A stretch of 64,000 nt of DNA from Bacilli bacterium (GTDB lineage Bacteria > Bacillota_I > Bacilli_A > RF39 > UBA660): NCBI GenBank assembly GCA_017442305.1, contig JAFRZY010000001.1, positions 2,632 through 66,631 on the forward strand, given 5' to 3'. The notes beneath the pieces are model-generated. The model had not been told where the DNA came from and searched no databases. It saw only the letters and a program-made list of their open reading frames with translations. Numbering within the stretch: position 1 is the stretch's first letter; every line of letters begins with the position of its first letter. The translations under genes and the position numbers were made by a program. This document shows, piece by piece, positions 20,095 to 60,788 of this stretch.

Positions 20095-20153
20095 GTTCTT
20101 TTTATTTGCATTTAGGTATAATTGTTAGTAAACTTATTATAGTAGGTGTTAAT

Positions 20154-33248: not shown

Positions 33249-33375
33249 TTTTATCACCTGATAAAATTATACTATAGATTTTAAAAAATTAAAACAAATT
33301 TGTTTATGATAATTAAGAACAAAATATAAAAAGAAACATAAATTATTAATGAGAATACATGAAAGGGTGAATGAT

Positions 33376-39374: not shown

Positions 39375-39395
39375 AAGAGGAAAGGATTTGCTTAT

Positions 39396-39815: not shown

Positions 39816-39825
39816 GAGGAATAAA

Positions 39826-40632
39826 ATGGGTAATTTAATGACAAATTTAAAAAAATTTATTAGTAATAAAAATACTGTTACTATATTAGGTGTAATATTA
39901 GGGGTAGTAGTTTTATATATCGGATATAATTATCGTGTAAAACAAGCTATAGAATTAGTTTCTATTCCTTATGCTACTCAAGCTATTGCTGGTAAGACTA
40001 AAATTACATCTGAAATGATTAGTACCGTTGAAGTAAATAGATCATTTTTAAGAAATAATCCTAATGTTATTACAGATATTAATAAATTAATAGATCAATA
40101 TGTTAATTATGGTATGCCTGTACCAAATGGAGCTTTCTTCTATACTGATCAAGTTGTAGCAGAAAAACAATTAAATGATTCAGCATTTAATGATATACCA
40201 GATGGCTATACAATATTTACTTTAAAGGTTGATTTACATACAACTTATGGTAATTCTATATACCCTGGTAATTATATAGATTTATATTTAAAAGCAATTG
40301 ATGATACTAATAGATTAATATATGGACAATTTATTACAAGTATCGAAGTATTGGCAGTTAAAGATAGTGCTGGAAATCATGTGTTTGAAGGTGCTTCAAC
40401 TGGTACTCCTGCAGAACTTTTATTTGCAGTACCAGACGAAATGTATAAATTGTTAATGAAAGCAGACTTATTAACATCAAATTCTATTGAAATAATCCCT
40501 GTACCTAGAAATGCTAGTTATACTTCTAATAAAGGAGAAACTAGTGTAACAAGTGAATATTTAAAGAATTTTATCTTATCTAAATCTGCGACAATCCCTG
40601 ATGAATTTGTAAATAATACAGTAACTGAATAA
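39826..40632 (+). CDS. cpaB: CpaB/RcpC-like pilus assembly protein (SAF domain)
   Basis: 268 aa. N-terminal TM, then VSIPYATQAIAGKTKITSEMIS, a SAF-like beta-clip. Position immediately upstream of the CpaF-like ATPase. Confidence 0.6.
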   Translation: MGNLMTNLKKFISNKNTVTILGVILGVVVLYIGYNYRVKQAIELVSIPYATQAIAGKTKITSEMISTVEVNRSFLRNNPNVITDINKLIDQYVNYGMPVPNGAFFYTDQVVAEKQLNDSAFNDIPDGYTIFTLKVDLHTTYGNSIYPGNYIDLYLKAIDDTNRLIYGQFITSIEVLAVKDSAGNHVFEGASTGTPAELLFAVPDEMYKLLMKADLLTSNSIEIIPVPRNASYTSNKGETSVTSEYLKNFILSKSATIPDEFVNNTVTE

Positions 40633-40646
40633 AAAAGAGTAAAGAG

Positions 40647-41768
40647 GTGAGATTTGTGAATGATGCTATATTTTCACAAATAGACTTTGGACCAATTAAA
40701 GAATTTTTAGAACAAGACAATATAACCGATATTTCCTACAGTAATGGTGGTCAAATATGGTTAAAGTCTTTGGATAAAGGTGTTTATAAAGTTGAGCGTC
40801 CAGAAATAAATAATGCGTTAATCGAAAAATTAGCTTTTCAATGTTCTAATGTAATGGGTAAGACATTTAATATGGCTCATCCATTCTTAGATGCTGAAAG
40901 TGCAGAATTACGTTTAAATTTTATTCATGACTCCATTGCAACCAATGGAGTAGCTCTAGTTATACGTAAAACTCCGGCTAAAATAAGATTAAATAAAGAA
41001 AAATTATTAAATGAAAAGTATGTTACTGAAGAACTTTTGAATTTCTTATTACTATGTGTTCGTGCTCATTGCAACATAATTGTAAGTGGTGAAACTGGTT
41101 CCGGTAAAACAGAATTAGTAAAATACCTAGCTAGTCATACACTAGAAAACGAAAAAATTATTACTATTGAAGATACCTTAGAGTTACATTTAGATAGAAT
41201 TTTTCCGCATCGTGATATTGTAGCTATGAAGACAAATAATATTGCTGATTATTCTGATGTGTTAGTAACATGTATGCGTCAAAATCCACGTTGGATTTTA
41301 CTTTCGGAAGTTCGTAGTGCAGAAGCAGTTATGGCTGTAAGAAACTCAATTTCTTCAGGGCATAATATTATTTCAACAATTCACTCTGATAGTGCTGCTA
41401 ATATACCAATGCGTATGTATAGTTTGCTTGAATCGAATTTAGACATTGACCAATTCTTAAAATCAATTCATCGTTATGTACAATTAGGAATTCATGTAAA
41501 AGGTTATATGAGTAAAGAATTAGGTCGATTCCAAAGAGAGATTGTCGAAGTGACAGAATTTTATGTTGATGAAGAAAATAAAGCTGGTCATAATACAATA
41601 TTTAAAAAAGGCTTAGATGGAAAAATATGTTTTAAAAATCCATCTAAATATATTAGAAATTATATGGGGGCTCAAGGAGTAGATGTTCCTGAAATAGTAT
41701 TTAAGGAAACTATTAGTGCAGAGGATAATACTACGTCAGATTATATAAATGAAATAGAAACTTTATAA
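40647..41768 (+). CDS. tadA: CpaF/TadA-family secretion ATPase
   Basis: Walker A SGETGSGKTE, IEDTLEL (Asp box), MRQNPRWILLSEVRSAEA, His box GHNIISTIHSDSA. An alternative GTG start at 40656 is better spaced from SD agaggtga. Confidence 0.85.
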   Translation: MRFVNDAIFSQIDFGPIKEFLEQDNITDISYSNGGQIWLKSLDKGVYKVERPEINNALIEKLAFQCSNVMGKTFNMAHPFLDAESAELRLNFIHDSIATNGVALVIRKTPAKIRLNKEKLLNEKYVTEELLNFLLLCVRAHCNIIVSGETGSGKTELVKYLASHTLENEKIITIEDTLELHLDRIFPHRDIVAMKTNNIADYSDVLVTCMRQNPRWILLSEVRSAEAVMAVRNSISSGHNIISTIHSDSAANIPMRMYSLLESNLDIDQFLKSIHRYVQLGIHVKGYMSKELGRFQREIVEVTEFYVDEENKAGHNTIFKKGLDGKICFKNPSKYIRNYMGAQGVDVPEIVFKETISAEDNTTSDYINEIETL

Positions 41769-41781
41769 AAGGAGGATATTT

Positions 41782-42675
41782 GTGGAACTTATTATATTAT
41801 TAGCTATAACAATATTTGTCATTACTTATAGAAAAAACACTGGCGAAAATGTTTATAAATTTTTTGTTTCGCAAGTGTCTAATATGTATGAAAAATATGC
41901 TCCTTATAGTTTTAAAACAGTTAGAGAAAAAACTAAAGAATTAGGACAAGAATACACTACTAAACAATATACTATTCAAGTTGTTTTATTTGCTGCTATA
42001 GGTGGCGGTATTGCTTATATGTATTTTTATAGTATTATATGGGCTTTAATATATGCATGCATTGCAGTTGCATTTATCCCATATCTAGCGTATTTAAGAT
42101 GCCAAAGAGTTTATAGTGAATATATATTTGAACAAATTCAGGTATATACAACAAATGTAATAATGGAATTTAATACAACTCAAAGTTTTGTTAAGTCTTT
42201 AGAGGGAGTTAGAGATTCAGGAATTTTAGAAAATCCTGTATTAGATGATGTAAAAACTATGATTGAGATGTCATATCAAAATGGTACGATAGATGAATCC
42301 ATTGAATTTTTCAATAGTAAGTACCCTTATTATATGGTAAAAAATATGCATCAATTATTTTTACAAATCACTAAAGAAGGTGCAAGAGATTCAGGAGAGT
42401 CTTTAGAAAACATGTCAATGGATATCGACGCTTTGGTTGAAGGTGTATATCGTGATCAAATGGATCGTAAAAATTTCCATAAAAGATTTATTACTTTTGG
42501 TCTTGTATTATTCTTCTTAGTAATGGTTATGCAATTTTTACTTGGAAGAGAAAGTTATATTGAATTACTAGACTTATGGTATGTAAAAATTATATTGCAT
42601 GCAATAATTATTATAAATAGTTATTTCCTTATCACTGGTGAAAAATATTATAATGAAGATGTGGGGGGAGAATAA
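41782..42675 (+). CDS. tadB: TadB-like T2SS-F-family platform protein
   Basis: 297 aa. N-terminal TMs, ~130-aa cytoplasmic helical domain, C-terminal TM pair. Follows the ATPase gene. Confidence 0.6.
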   Translation: MELIILLAITIFVITYRKNTGENVYKFFVSQVSNMYEKYAPYSFKTVREKTKELGQEYTTKQYTIQVVLFAAIGGGIAYMYFYSIIWALIYACIAVAFIPYLAYLRCQRVYSEYIFEQIQVYTTNVIMEFNTTQSFVKSLEGVRDSGILENPVLDDVKTMIEMSYQNGTIDESIEFFNSKYPYYMVKNMHQLFLQITKEGARDSGESLENMSMDIDALVEGVYRDQMDRKNFHKRFITFGLVLFFLVMVMQFLLGRESYIELLDLWYVKIILHAIIIINSYFLITGEKYYNEDVGGE

Positions 42676-43463
42676 TGTATTTAGAAATTATTATTATTGG
42701 TATTATTGTTATTTTCTTAATGGTTTATACTGGGCGAATTAATTCTAATAAGTTTTTTTCAGATAATGAAGTATATTTAAGAAAATTAAAAGAAGAAGAT
42801 TGGGATTTCTATGTAAAAGCTAAATATGGTGATAATGTTAATTCTGATATTCTATTTAATAGAAGAATCCGTAATGGAGTGATGATAGCCGCGTTAGTAC
42901 TATGTTTAATGCTTGGTAATTTAAGTTATATTACTTTTCTATTTGCTATTATTGTAGGTTTCTTCACTTTTAAATTAGATTATATTAATATTAAAAGTTA
43001 TTATAAGAAACATCTACATCAAATAGATGCTATGCTACCGCATTATTTAAAAAGTATAGAAATTTTAATACAACACTATACAGTACCGGTAGCTATTGGT
43101 AAATCAATGAATGATGCTCCAGCAATATTTAAAGATGGACTTCAAGAATTAATAAATGAAATTAATGCTGGTAATGATACTATTGAACCTTATATGAATT
43201 TTGCTAAAACATATCCGGTAAGAGATTCAATGCGTATGATGCGTTTATTATATCGTTTGAGTTTAGGACGCCAAGAAAGAAAGCAAGAACAATTACTAGC
43301 TTTTTCAAGATCAATTTCAAATTTGCAACAAAAAGCTAGGGAAACCAAATATAAAGAAAGACTTGAAAAAATGGAAAGTAAGACCATGGCAATGTTGATA
43401 ACTACCGGTTTAGGGGTTATGATATTACTTATCTTAGCTGTTCTATTAATAATGAATGTTTAA
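42675..43463 (+). CDS. tadC: TadC-like T2SS-F-family platform protein
   Basis: 262 aa with the same topology class. TAATG overlap with the TadB-like gene. Confidence 0.6.
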   Translation: MYLEIIIIGIIVIFLMVYTGRINSNKFFSDNEVYLRKLKEEDWDFYVKAKYGDNVNSDILFNRRIRNGVMIAALVLCLMLGNLSYITFLFAIIVGFFTFKLDYINIKSYYKKHLHQIDAMLPHYLKSIEILIQHYTVPVAIGKSMNDAPAIFKDGLQELINEINAGNDTIEPYMNFAKTYPVRDSMRMMRLLYRLSLGRQERKQEQLLAFSRSISNLQQKARETKYKERLEKMESKTMAMLITTGLGVMILLILAVLLIMNV

Positions 43464-43487
43464 AAACTGTCTTTTGACAGTTTTTTT
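43463..43487 (+). terminator. Rho-independent terminator
   Basis: AAAACTGTC TTTT GACAGTTTTTTT. Confidence 0.65.
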
Positions 43488-43512
43488 GCTTCGTAAAGTA
43501 AAAATATTCTTG

Positions 43513-43541
43513 TTGATAAAAATATAAAAAAAAGTTATAAT
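43513..43541 (+). promoter_or_regulatory. Near-consensus SigA promoter of the pilin operon
   Basis: TTGATA (43513..43518), 17-nt spacer, TATAAT (43536..43541). Confidence 0.55.
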
Positions 43542-43572
43542 AATTATGTAATAATAAAGGAGGAATTTAATA

Positions 43573-43836
43573 ATGAAGGAAGCAACTGGAGAATTAAATA
43601 TGACAGTTATAACAGTAGTGGCTATTGCAGCAGTAGGAGCATTCTTTTACGCATTTGTATGGCCTGCTATAAAAGGAAATATTACTAGCTCTACTAGATG
43701 TGCTAATGCTGTATGTACAAGTTGTTCTACTGCTAATGGAAGAAGAAGTTGTACTGGATGTTCGTTTGATACAAATGGAGATGGAGTAGTTTCAGGTACT
43801 GATGAAACTGGTTTTTCTTGCACATATAACGATTAA
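43573..43836 (+). CDS. Small pilin-like protein 1 (Cys-rich head)
   Basis: 87 aa. MKEATGELNMTVITVVAIAAVGAFFYAFVW, then a 6-Cys C-terminal domain. SD aaaggagg. Confidence 0.6.
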   Translation: MKEATGELNMTVITVVAIAAVGAFFYAFVWPAIKGNITSSTRCANAVCTSCSTANGRRSCTGCSFDTNGDGVVSGTDETGFSCTYND

Positions 43837-43849
43837 TTAGGTGATATAA

Positions 43850-44092
43850 ATGAAAGAGGCTACAGGAGAACTAAATATGACAGTAATTGTATTAACGTTG
43901 GTAGGGCTTCTAATAGCTCTTTTCTTTTATACTGTCTGGCCAATGTTAAGAGGAAATTTTGTTAGTGAAACAAATTGCAGTAAAGCAATTTGTGAACCTT
44001 GTCCTAGTATTGCAGGAAATACTTGTAAAACTAGGGTATGTCATATGCCAGGCGATGAAGCTAATACATTTGAATGTGTTAATAAAGGATAA
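43850..44092 (+). CDS. Small pilin-like protein 2 (Cys-rich head)
   Basis: 80 aa. The first 13 residues are identical to pilin 1 (MKEATGELNMTVI) despite synonymous nucleotide differences. 6 Cys in the C-terminal part. Confidence 0.6.
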   Translation: MKEATGELNMTVIVLTLVGLLIALFFYTVWPMLRGNFVSETNCSKAICEPCPSIAGNTCKTRVCHMPGDEANTFECVNKG

Positions 44093-44107
44093 AAGTAGGT
44101 GATATAA

Positions 44108-44593
44108 TTGAAAGAAGCAATAGGTGGTAATTGGTTATTTAATATTGTGATTTTTTTCGTTGTATTGTTTACTGGGTATTTATGTCTATCAATTAATCAT
44201 ACAAAGGCGTTTAATGTAAAAGACGATATAGTTAAAATTATTGAGCGTGAAAATGGATTTGAAGATTTAAGTGCTGTTAGTTCTTTGCATGATAAAAAAA
44301 TAATAAATGATATAGTTGATAGTTTACAAACTTTTGGATATCGTAATACTAGTGTTTGTCCTGTTAATGAATCAGGAACTACATGGTATGGCTTTGATAG
44401 AGAAGGAAACAGAGATCATAGTAACAGGAATTCGGCTTTTTGTATTCGAAAAATAGATGTTTCTAAGAATAGAGATGATGCACCTGATACTGGATATTAT
44501 CAAGTTGTTGTTTTCTATCAATTAGATTTACCAATATTTAATAGTTTATTTAATTTTAATATAAAAGGCGATACTAAGCTTTTATATAGGTAG
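44108..44593 (+). CDS. Pseudopilin/TadE-position protein
   Basis: 161 aa, TTG start. MKEAIGGNWLFNIVIFFVVLFTGYL. Paralog of the 44603 gene (shared FCIRK/YCIRK and F.I.G C-terminal strands). Confidence 0.5.
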   Translation: MKEAIGGNWLFNIVIFFVVLFTGYLCLSINHTKAFNVKDDIVKIIERENGFEDLSAVSSLHDKKIINDIVDSLQTFGYRNTSVCPVNESGTTWYGFDREGNRDHSNRNSAFCIRKIDVSKNRDDAPDTGYYQVVVFYQLDLPIFNSLFNFNIKGDTKLLYR

Positions 44594-44602
44594 GGTGAAT
44601 AT

Positions 44603-45079
44603 ATGAGAGAATCAATAGGAACCACATGGATTTTACAATTGGTAATAGTGTTTATTTTATTGTTTGTTAGTTTTTTAACTCTTTCATTAAATTATTCGAA
44701 AGCTTATAAAACTAAAAATGAAATGTTAAGTATAATAGAAAAGTATGAGGGATTAAATTCTGATTCTATAAAAATTATTAATAATTATTTAAGTTACAAT
44801 AATTATAAAGTTAAAAGCAAATGCCCGACTGATGGTATTTGGTATGGGCAAACAGATATATCTGGTAATAATGGAGTGTTAGAGCAAGCCGTTTCTAATC
44901 AAGAATATTATTATTGTATTCGAAAAAGAAGTTCGAATAGATATCATTATTACCATTTTTACGAAGTAAAAGTTTTCTTGACTTTTAATTTACCTGTTTT
45001 TGGTGATTTTGCTAAATTTACGATAAACGGGTCTACCGCAGATGTATTAACAAAAGATACATATACTGCATCAAATTAA
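44603..45079 (+). CDS. Pseudopilin/TadF-position protein
   Basis: 158 aa. MRESIGTTWILQLVIVFILLFVSFL. Paralog of the 44108 gene. Confidence 0.5.
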   Translation: MRESIGTTWILQLVIVFILLFVSFLTLSLNYSKAYKTKNEMLSIIEKYEGLNSDSIKIINNYLSYNNYKVKSKCPTDGIWYGQTDISGNNGVLEQAVSNQEYYYCIRKRSSNRYHYYHFYEVKVFLTFNLPVFGDFAKFTINGSTADVLTKDTYTASN

Positions 45080-45090
45080 GGAGGATTAAA

Positions 45091-46089
45091 ATGAATGTTA
45101 TAGTATCAAATAAGTTTCAACCATTACTTGCTACTTTAGATATTGATTTAATAAAAAGTATTAATGGTGAATTTACACCATCAGAATTAGCAAGTCAATT
45201 TAGTAATTTTTTCTTTAATAAGATGGTTTTAGATATTACAGCAATTAAAGATTATATGGATATTACTGTAATTCAAGAATTATCAGTTTCTATCGATATG
45301 AATAAAATAGTATTATTATTAGATGATTCTGAAATTGTTAATTCGCCAACTTATTTGTCACAACTTGTATCGATGGGTATTTATAATTTTACTAGAAGTA
45401 TTGATGCTGTTAAGTTTTTAATTGATAATCCTAATTCATATAAAGATGTAGCAAGTTATCATAATTTAAATAATACATATATTCCTACAGCTAGTACTGG
45501 AGATGGTGCTGTAAATCCTGTTCAGCCTATGGGATTAAGAGTTATTGGATTTAAAAATATTACTGAACATGCAGGGGCTACAACTTTGGTATATATGTTA
45601 AAGAAAAACTTGGAAAGAATGTATCAAGTAAAGGCAGTAGAAGTTGATAAACATGATTTTACATATTTAAATGATAAATCATTAGAATGTACAACAGCTG
45701 CAGATTTACCTGCTTATATAGCAAAAAATCAAAATAAAGAAGTAATTTTAGTTGATTTAAATGAAGAAGGTTCAGAAGGTGCTTGTTCTGAGGTTATTTA
45801 TTTAATTGAACCTGGATTAATAAAATTAAATAAATTAATAAGAAGAGATCAAGCGATTTTTGATAAATTAAAAAGCAAGAAAATAGTTTTAAATCGTAGC
45901 ATATTATCTAATAAGGATGTAGCAGATTTTGAATTTGAAAGTAGAAGTAGAGTATTCTTTAATATTCCTTATTTAGATGATAAGAAAGATTATCAAAAAG
46001 TATTAGATGACTTTTTGGCAGCATTAGGATTTTCTAGATTAAAAGATTCTGGTGACAATAAGAGTAAACTATTTAACATTTTCAAGTGA
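45091..46089 (+). CDS. TadZ/CpaE-like ParA/MinD-fold protein with a degenerate P-loop
   Basis: 332 aa. N-terminal receiver-like region. RVIGFKNITEHAGATTLVYML (45538..45600) occupies the position of the KGGxGxTT deviant Walker A. Confidence 0.5.
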   Translation: MNVIVSNKFQPLLATLDIDLIKSINGEFTPSELASQFSNFFFNKMVLDITAIKDYMDITVIQELSVSIDMNKIVLLLDDSEIVNSPTYLSQLVSMGIYNFTRSIDAVKFLIDNPNSYKDVASYHNLNNTYIPTASTGDGAVNPVQPMGLRVIGFKNITEHAGATTLVYMLKKNLERMYQVKAVEVDKHDFTYLNDKSLECTTAADLPAYIAKNQNKEVILVDLNEEGSEGACSEVIYLIEPGLIKLNKLIRRDQAIFDKLKSKKIVLNRSILSNKDVADFEFESRSRVFFNIPYLDDKKDYQKVLDDFLAALGFSRLKDSGDNKSKLFNIFK

Positions 46090-46095
46090 TATAAC

Positions 46096-46124
46096 TTGAC
46101 ATTGTTTTTTTGTTTAGTTACAAT
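46096..46124 (+). promoter_or_regulatory. Consensus-like SigA promoter
   Basis: TTGACA (46096..46101), 17-nt spacer, TACAAT (46119..46124). Confidence 0.65.
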
Positions 46125-46150: not shown

Positions 46151-46531
46151 ATGTTAATTATGGCAGGTGCAAATCAATTTTGTGCAGATACTTGGGAAAT
46201 TTGGCAATTTGTTGGTTATATTTTAATGATCTTTAAAATCGTAATTCCTCTATTATTATTAATCTTAGGAATGTTTGATTTAGGAAAGGCTGTAGTTGCT
46301 AGTGATGATAAGGCTATTAAGAAAGCAACTACTCAACTTGCATATCGTGCAGTTGCTGCAATCGTTATTTTCTTTGTTCCAACAATAATTGGTTTTGTAT
46401 TCTCAATTGTTAATGGATTTAATAATGATGCTGCAGTAAAAGCTAATTATACAAAATGTAAAGATTGTTTAGTTTCACCTACAAATAATACTAAATGTAA
46501 TGGTAATGCTGTAGTAATTAATGCTAACTAA
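46151..46531 (+). CDS. VirB2/TrbC/Maff2-like two-TM hairpin protein (candidate T4SS pilin-like subunit)
   Basis: 126 aa. Two hydrophobic helices separated by the polar loop DLGKAVVASDDKAIKKATTQ. Monocistronic, between a consensus promoter and a terminator. Confidence 0.5.
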   Translation: MLIMAGANQFCADTWEIWQFVGYILMIFKIVIPLLLLILGMFDLGKAVVASDDKAIKKATTQLAYRAVAAIVIFFVPTIIGFVFSIVNGFNNDAAVKANYTKCKDCLVSPTNNTKCNGNAVVINAN

Positions 46532-46563
46532 TATCATTTAGAGTTTTAAGAGTGTTATTTCTA

Positions 46564-46599
46564 AAAAGAGATGGAATTTTATTTACCATTTCTTTTTTT
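46564..46599 (+). terminator. Rho-independent terminator
   Basis: AGAGATGG (46567..46574) / CCATTTCT (46586..46593, one G-U pair) plus a T-run. Confidence 0.55.
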
Positions 46600-46642
46600 A
46601 ATGTTATAATTATTCTGTATATTATAGTGTCAGAGGTGTAAG

Positions 46643-47866
46643 ATGAAAAAAAGTTTTATATATTTATTTATAACATTATTATTATTTGTTAGTTTTTCTA
46701 GTTTGGTTAATGCTGCGCTTCCACTTCCTGGGGAAACATTTACTCCTCCTGCTGGATCGCAACAAGTTGTTTGTAATATAGGATATACCGATGGTTTACT
46801 TTATGATCAAGATTGGCATTTTATAATTACAAATATTTGTAAAGCAGAAAAACAATTAAATGAATGGAAATATGATTGCTCAAATGTTAATCTTGCTTGG
46901 TCAATAAAATACGGTGGTGTTTATATATGTCCTGCTACTGGATGTACGGATGTTTATAATGCTAATTCAGGTGGGATAGGTTTGGATTCTCTATTTTCAA
47001 ACAGTAACTTTGTAAATTTATATGCAAATGATGATAGCACAAATAAAGATTTATATACAAATTCAGAACTAAAGAATATTTTAACCTCAAAGAAATGTCC
47101 GAGTTATATTTATATAGCAACTAATCCGACAAATCAACATTTAGGTTTTATATTTTCGTCTTCGCCTGTAAATAATGCCAGTCAAATATTTAAAAATTCT
47201 GGTTATAAAGTTGAGTTTATGTCTGAAAATGCTGGAGAAGATTTATCTGCAGTTAATAAAACTAATTTTGAAAATCATCTAAAAAAAATGAAAGATAATA
47301 TCCAAAAATTTAAAGATAATGATTGGGGAAATGTTTATTCTGAAGAATGTTCAAAATTTGGTGTGTTTGGAGGTATTTTTCACATTGGAACTGGGGATTA
47401 TACAGAAAATACAACTTTAAAATATTATGAAAAATACAAAGAAGAATTACAAAAATCGGATTCGAGTTATAATTTCACGGAAGCAGATTCGTTATTTGAT
47501 GAATACAAAACAAAATATGTTTGTGCACCAAAACCTATTGATACTGGTGAAATAAATGAAATAAAATTAAATAGGGTAACTTGTGAAACTTTGTTTATGA
47601 ATGGATCTGAATATAATGATACTTGGAAGTTATTGAGCACAACTTTAAAATTTATGCAATATATGGCTGTTACACTTGCTTTAGTGCTATCAATAGTAGA
47701 TTTTATAAAAGTTGTTCCAACTAATGATAAAGATGCTATAAAAAAGTCTGCATTCAAGGCTGTAACTAGGGTAGGAATAGCTATTGTGATATTTTTTGTG
47801 CCAATAATTTTAGATTTTATTTTGGAGTTAGTTGGCTTTAGTAATCCAACTTGTGGATTAATATAA
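46643..47866 (+). CDS. Secreted ectodomain fused to a VirB2/Maff2-like C-terminal hairpin
   Basis: 407 aa. Signal peptide ...LVNA/ALP. C-terminal FMQYMAVTLALVLSIVDFIKVVPTNDKDAIKKSAFKAVTRVGIAIVIFFVPIILDF aligns to the 46151 protein. Confidence 0.5.
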   Translation: MKKSFIYLFITLLLFVSFSSLVNAALPLPGETFTPPAGSQQVVCNIGYTDGLLYDQDWHFIITNICKAEKQLNEWKYDCSNVNLAWSIKYGGVYICPATGCTDVYNANSGGIGLDSLFSNSNFVNLYANDDSTNKDLYTNSELKNILTSKKCPSYIYIATNPTNQHLGFIFSSSPVNNASQIFKNSGYKVEFMSENAGEDLSAVNKTNFENHLKKMKDNIQKFKDNDWGNVYSEECSKFGVFGGIFHIGTGDYTENTTLKYYEKYKEELQKSDSSYNFTEADSLFDEYKTKYVCAPKPIDTGEINEIKLNRVTCETLFMNGSEYNDTWKLLSTTLKFMQYMAVTLALVLSIVDFIKVVPTNDKDAIKKSAFKAVTRVGIAIVIFFVPIILDFILELVGFSNPTCGLI

Positions 47867-47890: not shown

Positions 47891-50137
47891 ATGTGGAAAT
47901 CAATTGAGGTAGGTTTAGTTAGACTACTATTGTTAATTGATTCTGTTATTTATGGATTTGTAGCTGATTTGTTTGAAATATTTGTTGAGTTAGCGAATGC
48001 AAGTAGTAAAATATTTACTGAGTCTGCGATTTCTTCCTTTGCCAATAGGATTTATGTTATAGTTGGGGTGGTAGCTTTATTTATTATTTCTTATCAGCTA
48101 ATAAACGCAATTATAAATCCAGATAATTTAACAAAAGGTAATAATTCTGGTGCTAAATTAGTTATGAATTTAGTAACATCAATTGTATTAGTGGCTTTAG
48201 TTCCTACTATATTTAATTATGCTTATAAGCTGCAAGATGTAATTTTAAATGATAATATCGTAGGTAAAGTATTTTTAGGAAATTTTTCAAATCAAGAAAA
48301 TTTGATTAACACAGATACTGGTGAAGTTATTGATAATTCGTATGTTGTAAAACAATATGGCTCACAACTTTCGTGGTCTGTTTTAAATGCTTTCTTTTAC
48401 ACAACTAATGAAGATTTATATACATCATGGAGTCCTTGGGGGGAATATAAGACAATTTCTGATGGCGTTAATTTTGTTGCTTGTGGTGGTGCTATACTTT
48501 TGGTAATTGGTTCTGGGGTAGCGACTTATTTTTCTGCTGGGGCTGCATCTGGAACTATTCCTACATCGGTTGGGGTAGCTGTAGCAGCTTGTGGCGCAAC
48601 GACTGTTAATAGCTTAGTTGCAAATACCGGTCATTTAATAACTTCTGATACTATTTATTGGAAAGGAATGACTGCTGTAGCACAATTAGGAGATTTTGGA
48701 TTAATTACTGCTTTTGCGGAAGAGATACTGAATGGTAATGTAATATATATGCCAATAATTTCTACAATAGTGGGGTTGATTTTATTATACATGATTTTCA
48801 GTTATTGTTTGGATTTGGGGTTGCGTGCAGTGAAATTGGCTTTTTATCAAATGATTGCTCCTATCCCAATATTTTCTAGAATAATTCCAAATAATAAGAT
48901 ATTTAATAATTGGATAAGATTAACTTTAACAACATTCATGGAAGTTTTCATAAGAATGATAGTTTTATTTACTGTAATATTTTTATCTTCTAATATAGGA
49001 GAATTAAATATTCCGGGTGGTCTATTAGTGAAAATGATTATAATTATGGGAATCGTTACTTTTGCGAGACAGGCTCCTAAATTAATTAGTGACTTAACTG
49101 GTATTGATAGTGGAAATATGAAGCTTGGTATTATGGAAAAATTAGGTGCAGGTGGTGCTTTGGCCGCTGGTGCGCTAATAGGTGGTGGAATAACTGCCGG
49201 AGTTAAGAATTTTACTAATAGCTGGAGAAATACAAATGGAAACAGATGGCAAAAACTTGGAGCTGGTTTAAAAAGTGGATTTGCTGGTACAGTATCTGGA
49301 GGTGTTAGAAGTGCCAAAGGAGCTGGTTTTAAAGCAAAAAGTTGGGGCGATATGAAAAACGCCGCTTCTGCGGGTAGTAAAGCTGCTCATAACAAATCTA
49401 AAGATAGAGCTGCTTATAAAGCATCGCATGGCGGAACTTTAGGCGGAGTTATTAAAGGTCATGCAAGTGACGCTTGGTCAGGAGTTAAGAATTGGGCTGG
49501 TGTTACTAGTGGTGTTCTTGAAAAAGTTGATTATCAAGAGGAATATTTAGCAGGATTTGATGATTATAAGTCTCTTTATAATAATGGATCATATCAAGCT
49601 ATGGAAGCACAATTAAATCAATATGAAGCTCGTATTGCAGCTGAGGGAGGAAGTGCTGAAACTTATAGTGGTTCAGGTATTACTTTAGATAGCGCACGTA
49701 AGTCGTTAGAGGAACAAATGCGTTTGAAAAGATTGGAAGCAATTGAAAAGAATACAGATGGGGCAGCATACACTATGTATAATTTAGCAATGCAAGTTAG
49801 AAATAATCAGGCTTTAGCTGCTGCAGCTGGAGTAGATCCAAACTTTATTAAAAATGCTGATGATTTTGAATTAAGAAACGGTAAAATTTATCATAAAAAT
49901 GGTGGAACAGTTTGGACTCATGAAGAATTACAAAAATTGTTAGAAGGAAGAGTTGCAACGCATGATCCGGTAACAGGAAAGATTAATGGAGATATTAATG
50001 ACCCTACTACTAAGATGTATGGAATGTCTAAAGGTTTGGGTGAATCTAAAAAAGATGTTGCAAAAGACAAAAACCAAACAAAAAGAAGTATTGCTTATAA
50101 AGAAGCTAAGAAAGCTAAAGATAGTCAAAAATCTTAG
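47891..50137 (+). CDS. VirB6/TcpH/PrgH-like polytopic T4SS channel protein
   Basis: 748 aa. About 7-8 TM helices in the first ~430 aa, a Gly/Lys/Trp-rich segment, then a soluble C-terminal domain. Position is upstream of the VirB3- and VirB4-like genes. Confidence 0.55.
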   Translation: MWKSIEVGLVRLLLLIDSVIYGFVADLFEIFVELANASSKIFTESAISSFANRIYVIVGVVALFIISYQLINAIINPDNLTKGNNSGAKLVMNLVTSIVLVALVPTIFNYAYKLQDVILNDNIVGKVFLGNFSNQENLINTDTGEVIDNSYVVKQYGSQLSWSVLNAFFYTTNEDLYTSWSPWGEYKTISDGVNFVACGGAILLVIGSGVATYFSAGAASGTIPTSVGVAVAACGATTVNSLVANTGHLITSDTIYWKGMTAVAQLGDFGLITAFAEEILNGNVIYMPIISTIVGLILLYMIFSYCLDLGLRAVKLAFYQMIAPIPIFSRIIPNNKIFNNWIRLTLTTFMEVFIRMIVLFTVIFLSSNIGELNIPGGLLVKMIIIMGIVTFARQAPKLISDLTGIDSGNMKLGIMEKLGAGGALAAGALIGGGITAGVKNFTNSWRNTNGNRWQKLGAGLKSGFAGTVSGGVRSAKGAGFKAKSWGDMKNAASAGSKAAHNKSKDRAAYKASHGGTLGGVIKGHASDAWSGVKNWAGVTSGVLEKVDYQEEYLAGFDDYKSLYNNGSYQAMEAQLNQYEARIAAEGGSAETYSGSGITLDSARKSLEEQMRLKRLEAIEKNTDGAAYTMYNLAMQVRNNQALAAAAGVDPNFIKNADDFELRNGKIYHKNGGTVWTHEELQKLLEGRVATHDPVTGKINGDINDPTTKMYGMSKGLGESKKDVAKDKNQTKRSIAYKEAKKAKDSQKS

Positions 50138-50157: not shown

Positions 50158-50460
50158 ATGAAAATGTATTTAATACCTGCCAATTCTAAGAAGTCTCAAT
50201 TGATTTTGGGCTTCTTTACCCCATTTGATTTAGTGGTATTTGGAATTGGAGCAATTATAACAATTATTTTGTTGTTGGTAATAAGAAGTTCAGATTTAAC
50301 TGTAATGATATTGATACTTTTACCGTTATTAATATCTACTTTGTTAGTTATGCCTGTTGTTTATTATCACAATGTAATGCAATTGTTAACAAATATAATT
50401 ATGTTTTTTATAAATAGACGAAGGTATTATTGGAAAGGCTGGTGTATTAATGAAGAATAG
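50158..50460 (+). CDS. VirB3/PrgI/TcpE-like small 2-TM protein
   Basis: 100 aa. Two TM helices. Immediately precedes and overlaps the VirB4 N-terminal-domain ORF. Confidence 0.5.
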   Translation: MKMYLIPANSKKSQLILGFFTPFDLVVFGIGAIITIILLLVIRSSDLTVMILILLPLLISTLLVMPVVYYHNVMQLLTNIIMFFINRRRYYWKGWCINEE

Positions 50461-51001
50461 TAAGGAAAGTTCTTTTACAGAAGATTGGTTACCTGTAAAA
50501 CAAATAATAAACGGGATGATTTTGACAGATGATGGTTATTATGTAACGGGGATTAAAGTTGCGCCTAAAAACATCTTCATTATGGATAGTGTTGCGCAAG
50601 ATGCAATTGTTAATAATTTAACAAATGTTTATAACATGTTAGATTTTGAATTTTGGTTGATGATTGCAGATAGACCTGTAGATTTAAGTGTTTATTTAGC
50701 GCAAATGCAAATGTTATATAATGATTCTAGTGATGCTTTAGAAAGAAAGCTAATTATGCAAGATATTAATAAAGCTAATATGTTTATGAGTAGTGAATAT
50801 AATGTTGTTGATACTGAATATTATATCTTGTTTAAAGAAAAGAAAATGGAATTAGTCCAAAAGAAACTACATAATTTAATTAGTGGTTTTGCAAGTTGTG
50901 GTTTAAATTCAACACAAACTTCAAATTCAGATTTAAGAATGATATTAGATAATTTCTTAAATGGTGGGGTTAGTACTACAGTTGGGACGGTGATGCCATA
51001 A
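50450..51001 (+). CDS. VirB4 N-terminal domain encoded as a separate ORF
   Basis: 183 aa. EDWLPVKQIINGMILTDDGYYVTGIKVAPKNIF resembles the N-termini of Gram-positive VirB4/TraE/Orf16-type ATPases. The stop overlaps the next ATG (TAATG at 50999..51003). Confidence 0.5.
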   Translation: MKNSKESSFTEDWLPVKQIINGMILTDDGYYVTGIKVAPKNIFIMDSVAQDAIVNNLTNVYNMLDFEFWLMIADRPVDLSVYLAQMQMLYNDSSDALERKLIMQDINKANMFMSSEYNVVDTEYYILFKEKKMELVQKKLHNLISGFASCGLNSTQTSNSDLRMILDNFLNGGVSTTVGTVMP

Positions 51002-52785
51002 TGGCCTTAAAGAGTGAAGTAGCACCTAAAGGTATGCAATTTAATGCAACAGATTTCATAATAAGTGGAAAATATTCTACAATTATGACAATTGTAACTT
51101 ATCCAAAAAATATTTATCCGGGTTATTTATCTGATTTAACAAGTTTAAGTGGTGTTAAAGTTGTTGTTAAACATATTCCTATTCCATTTAGTACTTTACA
51201 AAAAATGCTAAATAAAGAAATTGCTGATTTAAAAGCGCGTTATCAAACAGAAAAGGATTTAACATTTCAAGAAAAAATTCGTCAAGATTATGAATCCTTA
51301 GAACAGTTTATTTCAATGCTTGCTGCAACACAAGCAAGAATTTATGATTTTCAATTACATATAATGATTTCTGGGGATAATAAAGAAGAATTAGAAATGC
51401 GTAAGATGCAAGTTCGTAGCCATTTAGAAGCTATGGGTATGCGGGGAGTGTCATTAATGTTTGAACAGGAGAAAGTGTTAAAATCAATTCTACCGATTTT
51501 CCCTAAACAAGATATTGAAGATAGAATTGGTACTCCGGTTCCATCCGTTACAGTATCAGCGATGTATCCATTTGTGTTTGATAGTGTAAAAGATCCAGGT
51601 AATTCTATGTTATTTGGTGTGGATTTTTCCGGTGGAGTTGTATTATTTAATCAATTCTTATATCAATTAAAAAAAGAGCATAATAGAAATAATGCTAATA
51701 TGATTCTTTTAGGTACTTCTGGTACTGGTAAATCTACAGCAGCAAAATTATTAATTAGAAGTCATTTAAGAAATGGTTATAAAGTTGTATGTATTGACCC
51801 AGAAGGTGAACTTGGTGAAATGGTTAATAATATGGGCGGTAATTTCTTAGATTTAGGAAAAGGTGGAGAATATGGTATGATTAATCCACTTGAAGTAATT
51901 GTTGATGCTGATGAAGAGGAAATTGCTCAAGGTTTAGGTTATACAATTCTTACTCGTACGTTACAACAGTTAAAAGCATTTTTGAAATACTATTCACCTA
52001 GTATTGAGGAAGATGTACTTACAATGTTTAGTGAAGTAGTTCAAGATACTTATAAACGTTATAAAATAGATTTTGATACAGATTTTACAAAATTTACAAG
52101 TGCTGATTTTCCAACATTTGATGATGTTTATGCAACAATTAAAGGAAGATTGCTTTCAATGGTTGATGCAACTCACGAAAGAGATGTAATGGAAAGATTA
52201 GAATTAAAAATCAGACCACTAGTTAAAGAATTACGTTATTACTTTACAGGTCATACAACATTAGATATTGATAGTGATTTTATTGTGTTTAATATCAGAG
52301 AATTAATGAATAGCGATGAAAACATTAAAAATGCATTGTTCTTTAATATATTAAAATATGCATGGGGTGAATGTTTAGATAAATCTGTTAATACAGTAAT
52401 GATGGTTGATGAAGCGCATGTACTTCTATCTAGTCATAATGAATTAGGTGCGGAATTCTTAGCCCAAATTCAAAGACGTAGTAGAAAATATAATACTGGT
52501 ACAATCATAATTACTCAACAACCTACAGATTTTGCTGCTCCAAATATAATTACTCATGGTAAAGCAATATTTGATAATGCTGCTTATTATCTAGTAATGG
52601 GATTAAAAAAACAAGCTGTAGAAGACTTGTCTAAATTAATAGATTTAAATGAATCTGAAAAAGAAGGTATTAAATATTATAATCAAGGTGAAGCATTGTT
52701 TATTTGCGGAAGCCGTAGAATGAGAATAAATATAGTAGCCACTCAAGAAGAATTAGATTCTTTTGGTACAGGTGGTGGATTATAA
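51001..52785 (+). CDS. virB4: VirB4-family T4SS ATPase (C-terminal 594 aa)
   Basis: Walker A LLGTSGTGKST, Walker B VMMVDEAHVLL, downstream IIITQQP. The N-terminal part YSTIMTIVTYPKNIYPGYLSDL is typical of VirB4. Confidence 0.85.
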   Translation: MALKSEVAPKGMQFNATDFIISGKYSTIMTIVTYPKNIYPGYLSDLTSLSGVKVVVKHIPIPFSTLQKMLNKEIADLKARYQTEKDLTFQEKIRQDYESLEQFISMLAATQARIYDFQLHIMISGDNKEELEMRKMQVRSHLEAMGMRGVSLMFEQEKVLKSILPIFPKQDIEDRIGTPVPSVTVSAMYPFVFDSVKDPGNSMLFGVDFSGGVVLFNQFLYQLKKEHNRNNANMILLGTSGTGKSTAAKLLIRSHLRNGYKVVCIDPEGELGEMVNNMGGNFLDLGKGGEYGMINPLEVIVDADEEEIAQGLGYTILTRTLQQLKAFLKYYSPSIEEDVLTMFSEVVQDTYKRYKIDFDTDFTKFTSADFPTFDDVYATIKGRLLSMVDATHERDVMERLELKIRPLVKELRYYFTGHTTLDIDSDFIVFNIRELMNSDENIKNALFFNILKYAWGECLDKSVNTVMMVDEAHVLLSSHNELGAEFLAQIQRRSRKYNTGTIIITQQPTDFAAPNIITHGKAIFDNAAYYLVMGLKKQAVEDLSKLIDLNESEKEGIKYYNQGEALFICGSRRMRINIVATQEELDSFGTGGGL

Positions 52786-52816: not shown

Positions 52817-52857
52817 GTGATATAATTTTTACAGAATTATAAATAGTGGTGATAATT

Positions 52858-54981: not shown

Positions 54982-54990
54982 GAGAATTTT

Positions 54991-55758: not shown

Positions 55759-55846
55759 TCTACAAATCAATTAAAGTAAAGATAATACTCTTTGCTTTTC
55801 TTTATATTTTATAGTATAATATTTTTGTTAAACTGGAGGAATCAAA

Positions 55847-60762: not shown

Positions 60763-60788
60763 AAAAACAGATTTTAATCTGTTTTTTA
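60761..60788. terminator. Bidirectional terminator
   Basis: A7 CAGAT TTTA ATCTG T6 between convergent genes. Confidence 0.65.

What the first reader, a model, noticed from the sequence alone, without database searches (positions are those of the whole stretch)
46151..47866. VirB2/Maff2-like two-helix hairpin occurs free and fused behind large secreted ectodomains
Seen in sequence: one module recurs in three genes. It is a TM helix, a polar loop (DLGKAV.A.DDKAI..A) and a second TM helix (IIFF.PTII.F). It forms the core of the 126-aa protein at 46151. It is also the C-terminal module of the 407-aa protein at 46643 and of the 372-aa protein at 59644. Both larger proteins have signal peptides and ~300-aa N-terminal ectodomains. 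A short DTW(E/K) motif precedes the hairpin in two of the three. The free 126-aa version is a monocistronic unit with a near-consensus promoter (TTGACA-17-TACAAT) and its own terminator, as expected for an abundant structural subunit. Established knowledge: VirB2/TrbC pilins and Firmicute Maff2 proteins are small two-helix hairpins. Inference: the fused versions could be minor or tip subunits that display an ectodomain on a VirB2-like polymer. That would be a novel arrangement.
Basis: partly seen in the sequence, partly recalled or inferred. Interest (0 to 1): 0.7.

Follow-up and report, generated by a model that had tools for sequence, protein, structure and literature searches.

The report
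Modular VirB2-like pilins in gut Bacilli
A small two-helix membrane protein of the type IV secretion "pilin" family occurs free and fused behind large secreted domains in a chromosomal secretion locus of an uncultured gut bacterium, and the fused forms may decorate a Gram-positive conjugation-type pilus, which has not been tested.

Summary
The window has exactly three significant copies of one two-helix module: the free 126-aa protein, the 407-aa protein and the 372-aa protein (HMM E 1e-54, 1e-12, 4e-35; next hit 0.045).

The module belongs, at marginal scores, to Pfam PF18895 T4SS_pilin. It does not match TrbC/VirB2 (PF04956), Maff2, the Mycoplasma pilin-like family or pCF10 PrgF. Foldseek finds no solved pilin.

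The window is chromosomal DNA of an uncultured gut Bacilli MAG. No relaxase or integrase was found.

The order Tad-like pilus locus, free gene, fused gene(s), VirB6-like, VirB3, split VirB4, hydrolase, VirD4 recurs in many related MAGs, with arrays of up to 8 module genes. The free gene usually has a near-consensus promoter and a terminator-like hairpin.

The module is far better conserved than the ectodomains. Cysteines flanking the hairpin are near-invariant. Charge distribution predicts both termini outside, so fused domains are extracellular.

Best reading: a major VirB2-like subunit plus modular minor or tip subunits. Polymerisation is inferred, not shown. Thirteen loci link the free gene to the Tad-like locus with no T4SS nearby.

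I rate this a new variant of a known kind.

The parts
46096..46124 (+). Near-consensus sigma-70-type promoter (TTGACA-17-TACAAT) of the free hairpin gene
   Evidence: 11 of 12 matches. In relatives, 63 of 79 free genes have a site with at least 10 of 12 matches upstream, against 35 of 170 other module genes.
46151..46531 (+). Free 126-aa T4SS_pilin-like protein. Short acidic N-tail with invariant C11, helix 15-50, tight turn, helix 53-90, then a tail helix with invariant C103, C106 and C116. The hairpin is encoded at about 46193-46420.
   Evidence: AF2 pLDDT 81.6; loop net +2.0, N-flank -1.2, C-tail -2.4.
46563..46600 (+). AT-rich hairpin plus U-run, a candidate (possibly leaky) intrinsic terminator after the free gene
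   Evidence: In relatives a terminator-like hairpin follows 54 of 73 free genes against 47 of 115 other module genes. The consensus scan did not call it.
46582..46610 (+). Second promoter-like site (TTTACC-17-TATAAT with an extended-10 TG) ahead of the 407-aa gene
   Evidence: 10 of 12 matches. This is a consensus match only.
46643..47866 (+). 407-aa fused protein. Signal peptide (1-24, ...LVNA|A), ectodomain of about 290 aa with a 'C-N-I-G-Y' and a 'CPSYIY' motif, invariant C314, N325-x-T327, hairpin helices 326-360 and 363-397 (nt about 47618-47833), C404, end.
   Evidence: AF2 pLDDT 64.5. No PDB relative by fold or by sequence.
47891..50137 (+). VirB6/TrbL-like polytopic membrane protein (748 aa) with a long G/A/K-rich C-terminal extension. 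Presumed assembly platform. Its N-terminus gives a weak T4SS_pilin hit.
   Evidence: TrbL_4 E 4e-4; Mbov_0396/MMCAP2_0566 about 3-4e-5; T4SS_pilin E 0.002; hhalign probability 10%.
50158..52785 (+). VirB3-like (100 aa), TraC-like N-domain (183 aa) and VirB4 ATPase (594 aa), encoded as three overlapping ORFs
   Evidence: Mbov_0397 VirB4 family, 358 bits. The split is conserved in relatives.
52846..58099 (+). Cell-wall hydrolase (Peptidase_M23 plus lysozyme), a 255-aa membrane-anchored protein, and the VirD4 coupling protein (750 aa)
59644..60762 (+). 372-aa fused protein encoded apart from the cluster. Signal peptide (1-22, ...RVNA|E), Cys-rich ectodomain of about 215 aa with 'ECIY' and 'CPNIY' motifs, module about 238-320 (nt about 60355-60603), and a 52-aa Cys-rich tail. 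It has its own extended-10-like promoter and a clear terminator (60763-60788).
   Evidence: A 35%-identical relative lies in the same rhodanese-RmuC-UppP neighbourhood.
36240..46089 (+). Adjacent Tad-like pilus locus: 1044-aa protein, DUF5411, RcpC/CpaB-like, CpaF ATPase, two TadB/C-like proteins, small prepilin-like proteins with an MKEAxG leader, and a 332-aa protein. The free hairpin gene directly follows it in 44 of 67 loci with upstream flank.

Best explanation
The three genes encode paralogous members of a VirB2-like (Pfam T4SS_pilin) hairpin family. This family belongs to a chromosomal, apparently relaxase-less type IV secretion locus of an uncultured, walled gut Bacilli lineage.

Shown:
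- The shared module.
- Its family and its gene neighbourhood.
- Its predicted N-out, loop-in, C-out topology.
- Near-invariant cysteines on both extracellular flanks.
- Separate strong expression signals for the free gene.
- Much faster evolution of the ectodomains than of the module.

Inferred:
- The 126-aa protein is the abundant major subunit. The VirB6-like platform and the VirB4 ATPase extract it from the membrane and stack it into a short pilus or conduit through the wall. This is the model proposed for PrgF-PrgH in pCF10.
- The fused proteins carry the same assembly module and enter the same pathway at low stoichiometry.
- Both termini of VirB2-type pilins lie on the outer surface of the fibre, so the appended domains would be displayed outside.
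- The 407-type gene is almost always the last gene before virB6. It may act as the initiating or tip subunit, a functional stand-in for VirB5.
- The 372-type genes vary from none to several per locus and may be variable adhesin or enzyme display subunits.
- Disulfides between the pre-TM1 and post-TM2 cysteines probably clamp the two extracellular ends.
For: Module homology.

T4SS_pilin hits over the full profile in 65 of 73 free members. Some relatives carry precomputed PF18895 hits.

Conserved gene order free, fused, VirB6, VirB3, TraC-N, VirB4, hydrolase, VirD4 in distant relatives.

Fused genes longer than 165 aa occur only where the T4SS is adjacent: 30 of 30 loci against 0 of 16.

Topology from charge: loop +2.0, flanks -1.2 and -2.4. 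The fused forms have canonical signal peptides or lipoboxes. In relatives, hydrolase domains (GDSL lipase, Amidase_3, peptidases) are fused C-terminally to the module. That is also the outside.

Near-invariant residues shared by free and fused forms: pre-TM1 Cys, D, R, IFFxP and post-TM2 Cys.

Module identity is 57-71% where ectodomain identity is 20-51%.

Promoter and terminator enrichment at free genes.

Literature:
- VirB2-like PrgF is essential in a Gram-positive T4SS, with both termini outside the modelled pilus. No VirB5-like tip was found there (10.64898/2025.12.18.695078).
- Essential VirB2-like pilin arrays occur in Patescibacteria (PMC10633639, PMC12102498, PMC12857230).
Against: - No polymer has been shown or modelled.
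- The window copy is below Pfam's cut-off (21.2 vs 26.6 bits).
- There is no sequence link to solved pilins, to PrgF, to TrbC/VirB2 or to Maff2.
- Foldseek finds only generic TM hairpins.
- In 13 of 53 informative loci the free gene follows the Tad-like locus with no T4SS within 5-10 kb. Its partner could therefore be the Tad-like machine, or it may act independently of the T4SS.
- Orphan fused genes lie outside T4SS loci: the 372-aa gene here, and L087 and L088.
- A 215-290-aa domain on a subunit may be sterically incompatible with a VirB2-type lattice except at the tip or base.
Confidence: 0.5

Rival explanations
1. The hairpin is a static docking or anchoring module. It inserts in the membrane and binds the VirB6/VirB4 membrane complex, or simply anchors proteins. 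This holds adhesins and wall- or lipid-degrading enzymes at the secretion site. No fibre forms, and the free protein is a small structural subunit of the membrane complex.
For: - The ectodomains include envelope-active hydrolases in relatives. This would suit stationary accessory factors such as VirB1-like hydrolases.
- Foldseek shows only a generic TM hairpin.
- Gram-positive T4SS pili have never been visualised.
- Fused genes are strictly T4SS-linked.
Against: - A simple anchor needs one TM helix and no conserved sequence. Here residue identities in both helices, the charged loop and the flanking cysteines are conserved across free and fused forms.
- The free form has separate high-expression signals, as expected for a stoichiometrically dominant subunit.
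- The family matches a pilin profile.
Confidence: 0.3
2. The free hairpin protein belongs functionally to the neighbouring Tad-like pilus system, or to a combined Tad plus T4SS apparatus, and not to the T4SS alone. Its position before virB6 in this window would then be a consequence of the two loci abutting.
For: - The free gene directly follows the last Tad-like gene in 44 of 67 loci with upstream flank.
- 13 loci have Tad plus one or two free genes and no T4SS nearby.
- One T4SS locus has fused genes but no free gene (L006).
Against: - 14 loci have free plus fused plus T4SS without a Tad locus upstream.
- The same module is fused in strictly T4SS-linked genes.
- The Tad-like locus has its own prepilin-like genes with a shared MKEAxG leader.
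- No known Tad component is a two-TM hairpin (my own knowledge of Tad systems).
- A split of one ancestral locus into two would explain the same pattern.
Confidence: 0.12
3. The similarity is a compositional artefact of hydrophobic helices, and the three proteins are unrelated.
For: Some noise-level hits of family members to GPCR and transporter profiles show that TM composition alone can produce weak matches.
Against: - Pairwise E-values of 3e-18 and 6e-12 with composition adjustment.
- Polar loop residues and cysteines are conserved.
- HMM E-values of 1e-12 to 1e-54 against 0.045 for the next ORF.
Confidence: 0.01

Closest known systems
Pfam PF18895 T4SS_pilin, the VirB2-like pilins of Patescibacteria (CPR), including the essential pilin array of Ca. 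Southlakia epibionticum
   Same: - Small two-helix hairpin encoded next to virB6/virB3/virB4 of an MPF_FATA-like system in a monoderm.
- Chromosomal, with no relaxase nearby.
- Tandem arrays of divergent paralogues.
- A type IV-filament locus is also present.
(PMC12102498, PMC10633639, PMC12857230.)
   Different: - The host is an uncultured gut Bacilli lineage, not Patescibacteria.
- A VirD4 coupling protein is present.
- Most array members carry ectodomains of about 50 to over 400 aa, with a signal peptide or lipobox. The CPR papers I read describe no such fusions.
- Scores to the profile are marginal.
PrgF (pCF10), proposed VirB2-like pilin of Gram-positive conjugative T4SSs (ter Beek et al., bioRxiv 2025)
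   Same: - 50-150 aa, two TM helices, a charged cytoplasmic loop, and a gene just upstream of virB6.
- A monoderm host with a thick wall and a T4SS-encoded hydrolase.
   Different: - No detectable sequence similarity.
- PrgF has no flanking cysteines and no third helix.
- No fused paralogues and no tip protein were reported for pCF10.
- pCF10 is a plasmid with a relaxase, whereas this locus is chromosomal.
Modular (bimodular) type IV pilins such as Streptococcus sanguinis PilB (PMC8179133)
   Same: The same logic: a conserved polymerisation module shared with the major pilin, with a grafted functional domain displayed on the filament at low abundance.
   Different: It is an unrelated filament superfamily. 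Type IV pilins have a single N-terminal helix and are processed by a prepilin peptidase. This is an analogy only.
VirB5 / TraC pilus-tip proteins of Gram-negative T4SSs
   Same: Proposed role only. A VirB5-type subunit initiates the pilus on the VirB6 platform and presents an adhesive domain at the tip (PMC12857230).
   Different: VirB5 is a soluble helical periplasmic protein without a VirB2 module. The 407-aa model gave no VirB5 hit by Foldseek against the PDB, and the sequence profile gave no PDB hit at all.
Mycoplasma ICE proteins (Mbov_0395 pilin-like, Mbov_0396/MMCAP2_0566 TM protein, Mbov_0397 VirB4)
   Same: The VirB4 here is closest to the Mbov_0397 family (358 bits). The VirB6-like protein weakly matches Mbov_0396/MMCAP2_0566.
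   Different: The hairpin matches the Mbov_0395 pilin-like model only at noise level: 12.7 bits against a cut-off of 40, and 18 of 73 members at E<=0.1. Those elements are ICEs in wall-less bacteria.

Membership tests
Pfam PF18895 T4SS_pilin | Profile score at or above the gathering cut-off (26.6 bits) | tested here: inconclusive
   Window proteins: 126 aa 21.2 bits (E 3.2e-4), 372 aa 15.4 bits, 407 aa no hit. In the family, 65 of 73 free members hit at E<=0.01, best 3.3e-7, covering profile positions 5-71 of 71. Roughly one in six close relatives carry a precomputed PF18895 hit. Only 8 of 119 fused proteins hit at E<=1e-4.
VirB2-like pilins in general (including PrgF-type) | Small protein with two TM helices joined by a short charged cytoplasmic loop, both termini outside | tested here: met
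   AF2 gives helices 15-50 and 53-90. Hydropathy and charge analysis gives loop net +2.0 and flanks -1.2 and -2.4 over 73 members. Topology is predicted, not measured.
VirB2-like pilins in general (including PrgF-type) | Gene encoded close to virB6 / virB4 | tested here: met
   In the window the free gene lies 1.36 kb upstream of the VirB6-like gene. T4SS genes lie downstream in 47 of 66 relatives with usable downstream flank, and are absent nearby in 19.
VirB2-like pilins in general (including PrgF-type) | Assembles into a helical polymer on a VirB6 pentamer (structure, or a multimer model with ipTM >0.65) | not testable with these tools
   Only single-chain prediction was available.
VirB2-like pilins in general (including PrgF-type) | Detectable structural or sequence similarity to solved pilins (TraA, VirB2, TrwL, TrbC) or to PrgF | tested here: not met
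   The profile search against PDB sequences gives only rhodopsin noise. Foldseek gives no hit at E<1 and the best local matches are HtrII-type TM hairpins. hhalign against PrgF gives probability 1%. Two-helix hairpins give these methods little to discriminate on.
Pfam PF04956 TrbC/VirB2 | Profile match; long cleaved signal peptide; in some members head-to-tail cyclisation | tested here: not met
   No PF04956 hit at E<=1 for the window proteins or at E<=0.01 among 73 relatives. The free protein has no N-terminal signal peptide. Cyclisation is not testable.
Pfam PF12750 Maff2 | Profile match | tested here: not met
   No hit.
NCBIfam NF045849 Mbov_0395 pilin-like conjugal transfer protein (Mycoplasma ICE) | Profile score at or above 40 bits | tested here: not met
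   12.7 bits, E 0.074. 18 of 73 relatives hit at E<=0.1, best 0.0015, which is no better than unrelated membrane families.
Conjugative element (ICE or plasmid) T4SS | Relaxase, integrase or replication genes nearby, and an island-like context | tested here: not met
   No relaxase or integrase domain was found in the ORFs scanned, which cover nearly all ORFs of at least 140 aa in the 64 kb. The flanks are tRNA synthetases, FtsW, a MurJ-like protein, RmuC and UppP. GC content is uniform. tblastn finds no match in 72,556 plasmids. A relaxase elsewhere in the genome cannot be excluded.
VirB5-type tip protein (for the 407-aa protein) | VirB5/TraC fold or profile | tested here: not met
   No Pfam or NCBIfam hit. 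No PDB match by fold (the model has low confidence, pLDDT 64.5) or by sequence profile.

The most novel reading that the evidence does not exclude
An uncultured, walled gut Bacilli lineage carries a vertically inherited, relaxase-less Tad-plus-T4SS contact apparatus. This apparatus builds a heteropolymeric VirB2-type pilus. Its minor or tip subunits are modular pilins: the same hairpin carrying fast-evolving adhesin-like or envelope-degrading domains. These supply the missing VirB5-like function in monoderm T4SSs and determine partner specificity. The arrangement parallels the essential pilin arrays of epibiotic Patescibacteria and hints at a contact-dependent, possibly host-dependent, lifestyle.
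Probability: 0.25. Interest if true: 0.85.

Novelty: new variant of a known kind. Interest (0 to 1): 0.62.

Why it matters
Until 2023-2025 Gram-positive T4SSs were thought to lack pilins. Patescibacterial pilin arrays and pCF10 PrgF changed that view. No tip or minor subunit is yet known for any monoderm system, and no VirB2-type pilin with a grafted domain turned up in the literature I could search.

This family offers natural chimeras. One conserved hairpin is joined to many different extracellular domains, in arrays of up to eight genes next to virB6. If these chimeras co-assemble, they would show three things:
- how a conjugation-type pilus can be functionalised;
- what provides adhesion or wall penetration in monoderms;
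- why the arrays diversify.

The locus also marks a second reduced-genome-style lineage, besides Patescibacteria, with a chromosomal T4SS and no relaxase in sight. It gives concrete targets for multimer modelling and metaproteomics: a free-to-fused subunit ratio and a predicted disulfide clamp.

Tried and rejected
1. Sequence search of the free-family profile against all PDB chains gave only rhodopsin-type noise.
2. Foldseek of the 126-aa model (pLDDT 81.6) against the PDB gave nothing below E 2. No pilin was retrieved.
3. Foldseek of the 407-aa model (pLDDT 64.5) gave no fold for the ectodomain. PDB sequence searches with the 372-aa protein and the 407-type profile gave nothing.
4. hhalign of the family against pCF10 PrgF found no relation.
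5. The 'fourth copy' at the VirB6-like N-terminus is too weak to count: Pfam E 0.002, but hhalign probability 10%, and the free-family HMM does not find it.
6. NCBIfam Mycoplasma ICE pilin-like and TM families hit at noise level.
7. tblastn of the free protein against 72,556 plasmids found no match.
8. The metagenome scan with the 407-type alignment returned a single locus, so no unbiased T4SS-anchored statistics were possible. Two look-ups via 407-type proteins showed the full Tad, free, fused, T4SS order.
9. I rejected the 'DTW' motif as a shared feature because the two strings are at non-homologous positions.
10. I looked for papers on T4SSs in RF39-type gut Bacilli and found none.
11. I could not place the MAG in GTDB. 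The link of names such as CAG:460 and Ca. Coprovivens to order RF39 is from memory only. NCBI lists them as Bacilli incertae sedis or Bacteria incertae sedis.
Full report
**1. What is in the sequence**

The window has about 27% G+C and uniform composition. The three ORFs exist as reported: 46151-46531 (126 aa), 46643-47866 (407 aa) and 59644-60762 (372 aa).

Pairwise BLASTP gives these values:
- 126 vs 372: E 3e-18, 44% identity over 106 residues. The match runs from a Cys before the first helix to a CxxC after the second.
- 126 vs 407: E 6e-12 over 77 residues.
- 407 vs 372: E 0.084.

An HMM built from 120 homologues of the free protein scores the three window ORFs at 1e-54, 4e-35 and 1e-12. 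Every other window ORF of at least 40 codons scores 0.045 or worse. The window therefore holds exactly three real copies.

The promoter TTGACA-17-TACAAT is present at 46096-46124, followed by a good ribosome-binding site. After the stop codon lies an AT-rich hairpin with a U-run (z only -1.6). A second promoter-like site precedes the 407-aa gene.

- The loop motif fits only two of the three copies.
- The module of the 372-aa protein is followed by a 52-aa Cys-rich tail that is itself partly homologous to the tail of the free protein.
- The 372-aa ectodomain is about 215 aa.
- The two 'DTW' strings are not at homologous positions.

**2. Which family**

Pfam places the free protein in PF18895 T4SS_pilin at E 3.2e-4. 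That is 21.2 bits, below the 26.6-bit cut-off, but it covers the whole profile. The 372-aa protein scores E 0.02. Of 73 diverse relatives, 65 hit PF18895 at E<=0.01, the best at 3.3e-7. The next families, GPCR-type profiles, are matched by 15 members or fewer at about 1e-3 and are plainly compositional noise.

Negative results:
- No hit to TrbC/VirB2 (PF04956) or Maff2 (PF12750).
- The Mycoplasma 'pilin-like' NCBIfam model is matched only at noise level.
- The profile finds no solved pilin in PDB sequences.
- The AF2 model of the free protein has pLDDT 81.6, with helices 15-50, 53-90 and 94-108. Foldseek returns only generic two-helix TM hairpins for it.
- hhalign against pCF10 PrgF is negative.

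Membership of a VirB2-like pilin family therefore rests on a marginal but consistent Pfam match, on architecture and on gene context. It does not rest on similarity to any characterised pilin.

**3. Context**

Downstream of the 407-aa gene lie these genes:
- a VirB6/TrbL-like protein (748 aa);
- a VirB3/PrgI-like protein (100 aa);
- a TraC-like N-domain (183 aa);
- a VirB4 ATPase (594 aa; best model the Mycoplasma ICE VirB4 family, 358 bits);
- an M23 peptidase plus lysozyme hydrolase;
- a 255-aa membrane protein;
- VirD4.

Upstream is a Tad-like pilus locus: DUF5411, RcpC-like, CpaF, two TadB/C-like proteins and prepilin-like proteins.

The rest of the window is housekeeping: ThrRS, LeuRS, TyrRS, FtsW/RodA, a MurJ-like protein, TrmB, RmuC and UppP. 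No relaxase or integrase domain was found in the ORFs scanned, which cover nearly all ORFs of at least 140 aa. The proteins are identical to those of an NCBI MAG labelled 'Bacilli bacterium'.

**4. Relatives**

The free family is large. A profile search of 1.84 billion representatives gives 9,245 hits at E<=1e-3 and 3,986 at E<=1e-10. Among the best 150, roughly half are 170-490 aa with the module at the C-terminus, and several have it at the N-terminus.

A scan of GTDB species genomes returned 366 confirmed stretches. The 80 best come from uncultured gut or rumen MAGs labelled Bacilli, Tenericutes, Erysipelotrichaceae, CAG:460, Ca. Coprovivens, Ca. Onthocola or Ca. Ventrenecus.

Searches with the two fused proteins show the same thing. 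Only a few hits are full-length orthologues. Most share just the module behind unrelated-looking ectodomains that start with a canonical signal peptide or a lipobox.

Two module subtypes exist:
- The '372-type' keeps the Cys-rich tail of the free protein.
- The '407-type' ends 8-10 residues after the second helix. It has its own highly conserved sequence, TC.TLF...YN.T..LL.TLKFMQY...VLS..DF.KVVPT.DKDAIKK...R..IAIVIFFVPIIL.FIL.LVGF..PTC.LL.

**5. Arrays and gene order**

In 86 fetched loci the module genes form tandem arrays of 1-8 genes. The order is free gene, then none to several 372-type genes, then one or two 407-type genes, then virB6. The ectodomain of the 407-type gene ranges from about 30 aa to about 500 aa.

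Fused genes longer than 165 aa are found only where the T4SS is adjacent: 30 of 30 loci against 0 of 16.

The free gene sits exactly at the junction with the Tad-like locus. Of 53 loci with enough flank:

| Configuration | Loci |
|---|---|
| Tad + free + T4SS, with fused genes | 16 |
| Tad + free + T4SS, second module gene only a short 126-164-aa form | 7 |
| Free + fused + T4SS, no Tad | 14 |
| Tad + one or two free genes, no T4SS within 5-10 kb | 13 |
| Neither | 3 |

One T4SS locus, fetched through a fused protein, has fused genes but no free gene (L006). This pattern is compatible with one ancestral super-locus that is split in some genomes. It also leaves open that the free protein works with the Tad-like machine. 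I could not inspect whole genomes, so this stays unexplained.

**6. Features bearing on mechanism**

(a) Topology. Over 73 free members the inter-helix segment carries 5.7 K+R in 24 residues (net +2.0). The N-flank has net charge -1.2 and the tail -2.4. This predicts N-out, loop-in, C-out, as for mature VirB2 and PrgF. Signal peptides on the N-terminal fusions fit this topology. So do hydrolase domains fused C-terminally in relatives: four GDSL lipases, Amidase_3, Peptidase_C39-like, S9/esterase and S11. In every case the extra domain ends up outside.

(b) Conserved residues.
- Free family, invariant: C11, G22, P33, G40, D43, G45, K46, A47, V48, R66, P77, C103, C106 and C116.
- 119 diverse fused proteins, near-invariant: the pre-TM1 Cys, D, R, IFFxP and the post-TM2 Cys.

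The cysteines lie on the same, extracellular, side. They probably form a disulfide clamp between the two ends of the hairpin. This is an inference.

(c) Evolutionary rates. Between orthologues and paralogues the module is 57-71% identical where the ectodomains are 20-51% identical. The nearly identical pair P0121/P0122 (84-85% in both regions) is set aside.

(d) Ectodomains are not arbitrary. 372-type ectodomains share 'tCxY' just after the signal peptide (Cys 94%, Tyr 88%), a 'CP..iY' strand (Cys 94%) and a third Cys (82%). The 407-type shares the CPxYIY element (hhalign probability 78%, E 2e-5 over 16 columns). No known fold or PDB relative was found, and the 407-aa model has low confidence.

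(e) Expression signals. A promoter with at least 10 of 12 matches lies upstream of 63 of 79 free genes, against 35 of 170 other module genes. A terminator-like hairpin follows 54 of 73 free genes, against 47 of 115 others when only gaps of 50 nt or more are counted. This fits an abundant major subunit followed by less-expressed partners.

**7. Comparison with what is known**

Reviews up to late 2025 state that VirB2 and VirB5 are absent from Gram-positive T4SSs, except in Patescibacteria. There, chromosomal, mostly relaxase-less MPF_FATA-like systems carry arrays of 2-11 PF18895/VirB2-like pilin genes. In Ca. Southlakia epibionticum the array is essential (PMC12857230, PMC12102498, PMC10633639).

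A December 2025 preprint reports the following:
- pCF10 PrgF is an essential VirB2-like protein.
- It models as a pilus on a PrgH (VirB6) pentamer, with both termini outside and the charged loop in the lumen.
- Similar small hairpins lie near virB6 in most Gram-positive conjugative plasmids.
- No VirB5-like tip protein was found.

I found no paper describing VirB2-type pilins with grafted ectodomains, nor any on a T4SS in this Bacilli lineage. The nearest conceptual precedent is the modular type IV pilin PilB of Streptococcus sanguinis (PMC8179133), from an unrelated filament family.

**8. Verdict**

The most likely reading (about 0.5) is a VirB2-like major subunit plus modular minor or tip subunits that use the same VirB6/VirB4 assembly route and expose variable domains on the outside. 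The 407-type is the best candidate for a VirB5-like initiator, because of its fixed position before virB6.

The main rival (about 0.3) is that the hairpin is a non-polymerising docking or anchoring module of the T4SS membrane complex. A link of the free protein to the Tad-like machine (about 0.1) cannot be excluded.

The step from 'shared pilin-family module' to 'co-assembly in a pilus' is inference.

Noticed in passing
window 36240-46089: A Tad-like pilus locus: a 1044-aa unannotated protein, DUF5411, RcpC-like, CpaF, two TadB/C-like proteins and a 332-aa protein. It also has four small prepilin-like proteins (about 43558-43833, 43850-44092, 44108-44593, 44603-45079). Three of them (sequences) share an MKEAxG / MRESIG-type leader and a hydrophobic helix, and the 80-aa one has a Cys-rich tail. 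The whole block is conserved next to the free hairpin gene in 44 of 67 related loci.
   Followed up: partly
window 50158-52785: The VirB3/VirB4 function is encoded as three ORFs with overlapping ends: a 100-aa PrgI-like protein, a 183-aa TraC-like N-domain and a 594-aa ATPase. The closest model, Mycoplasma Mbov_0397, is a single 894-residue profile that all three ORFs match in series. The split is conserved in distant relatives (L004-L006, L091, L092), so it is not a frameshift artefact.
   Followed up: partly
window 47891-50137: The VirB6-like protein is an 'extended VirB6'. A G/A/K-rich C-terminal region of about 300 aa follows the TM core. Its N-terminal two helices (residues 46-110) give a weak T4SS_pilin hit (E 0.002) that profile-profile comparison does not confirm.
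   Followed up: partly
window 59644-59679: The database representative identical to the 372-aa protein (P0140, 360 aa) starts at Met13. That start cuts off most of a canonical signal peptide (MKKYIIFFIGIFMCLIPLRVNA|ED). The longer start has a GGTGAT ribosome-binding site.
   Followed up: yes
L002 position 5139 (equivalent to window about 46781): In one metagenome assembly the 407-aa gene carries a single G-to-T change that turns Gly47 (GGA) into TGA and splits the gene into 46-aa and 294-aa ORFs. This is a natural null allele or a sequencing error.
   Followed up: partly
L007 11827-13032; L017 11911-13122: In loci where the free gene is not followed by a T4SS, it is followed by a NifS-like gene. 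Next comes a 401-403-aa secreted thioredoxin-fold protein (CPHC motif) fused to a polytopic membrane domain. This could be a disulfide-handling system for the many Cys-rich surface proteins of these anaerobes.
   Followed up: no
window 1-64000: No relaxase, integrase or replication-initiator domain was found in the ORFs scanned. The T4SS is flanked by tRNA synthetases, cell-wall genes and RmuC, and has the same G+C as its surroundings. The T4SS looks vertically inherited rather than part of a recently acquired element.
   Followed up: yes
window 47615-47623 (residues 325-327 of the 407-aa protein): An N-x-T triplet just before the first helix is invariant (N325, T327) in all 18 aligned 407-type proteins. 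It may be a helix cap or a modification site.
   Followed up: no
L010, L021, L033, L048, L073, L086: Several MAGs carrying this Bacilli-type locus are labelled 'uncultured Muribaculaceae bacterium' in their records. This is probably a binning or labelling error.
   Followed up: no
window 10538-14308, 8655-10190 and 20106-21386: Three large ORFs (1256, 511 and 426 aa) have no Pfam match at E<=1e-5. A CotZ-like spore-coat domain protein lies at 33349-33822, and a relative (L087) has a YunB-like gene. This hints that the lineage may sporulate.
   Followed up: no
window 46151-46531 (Pfam hit): The free protein also matches PF17534 (DUF5453) at E 0.0035 over residues 15-124, against profile positions 80-180 of 186. 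DUF5453 may be another family with this hairpin behind an N-terminal extension.
   Followed up: no
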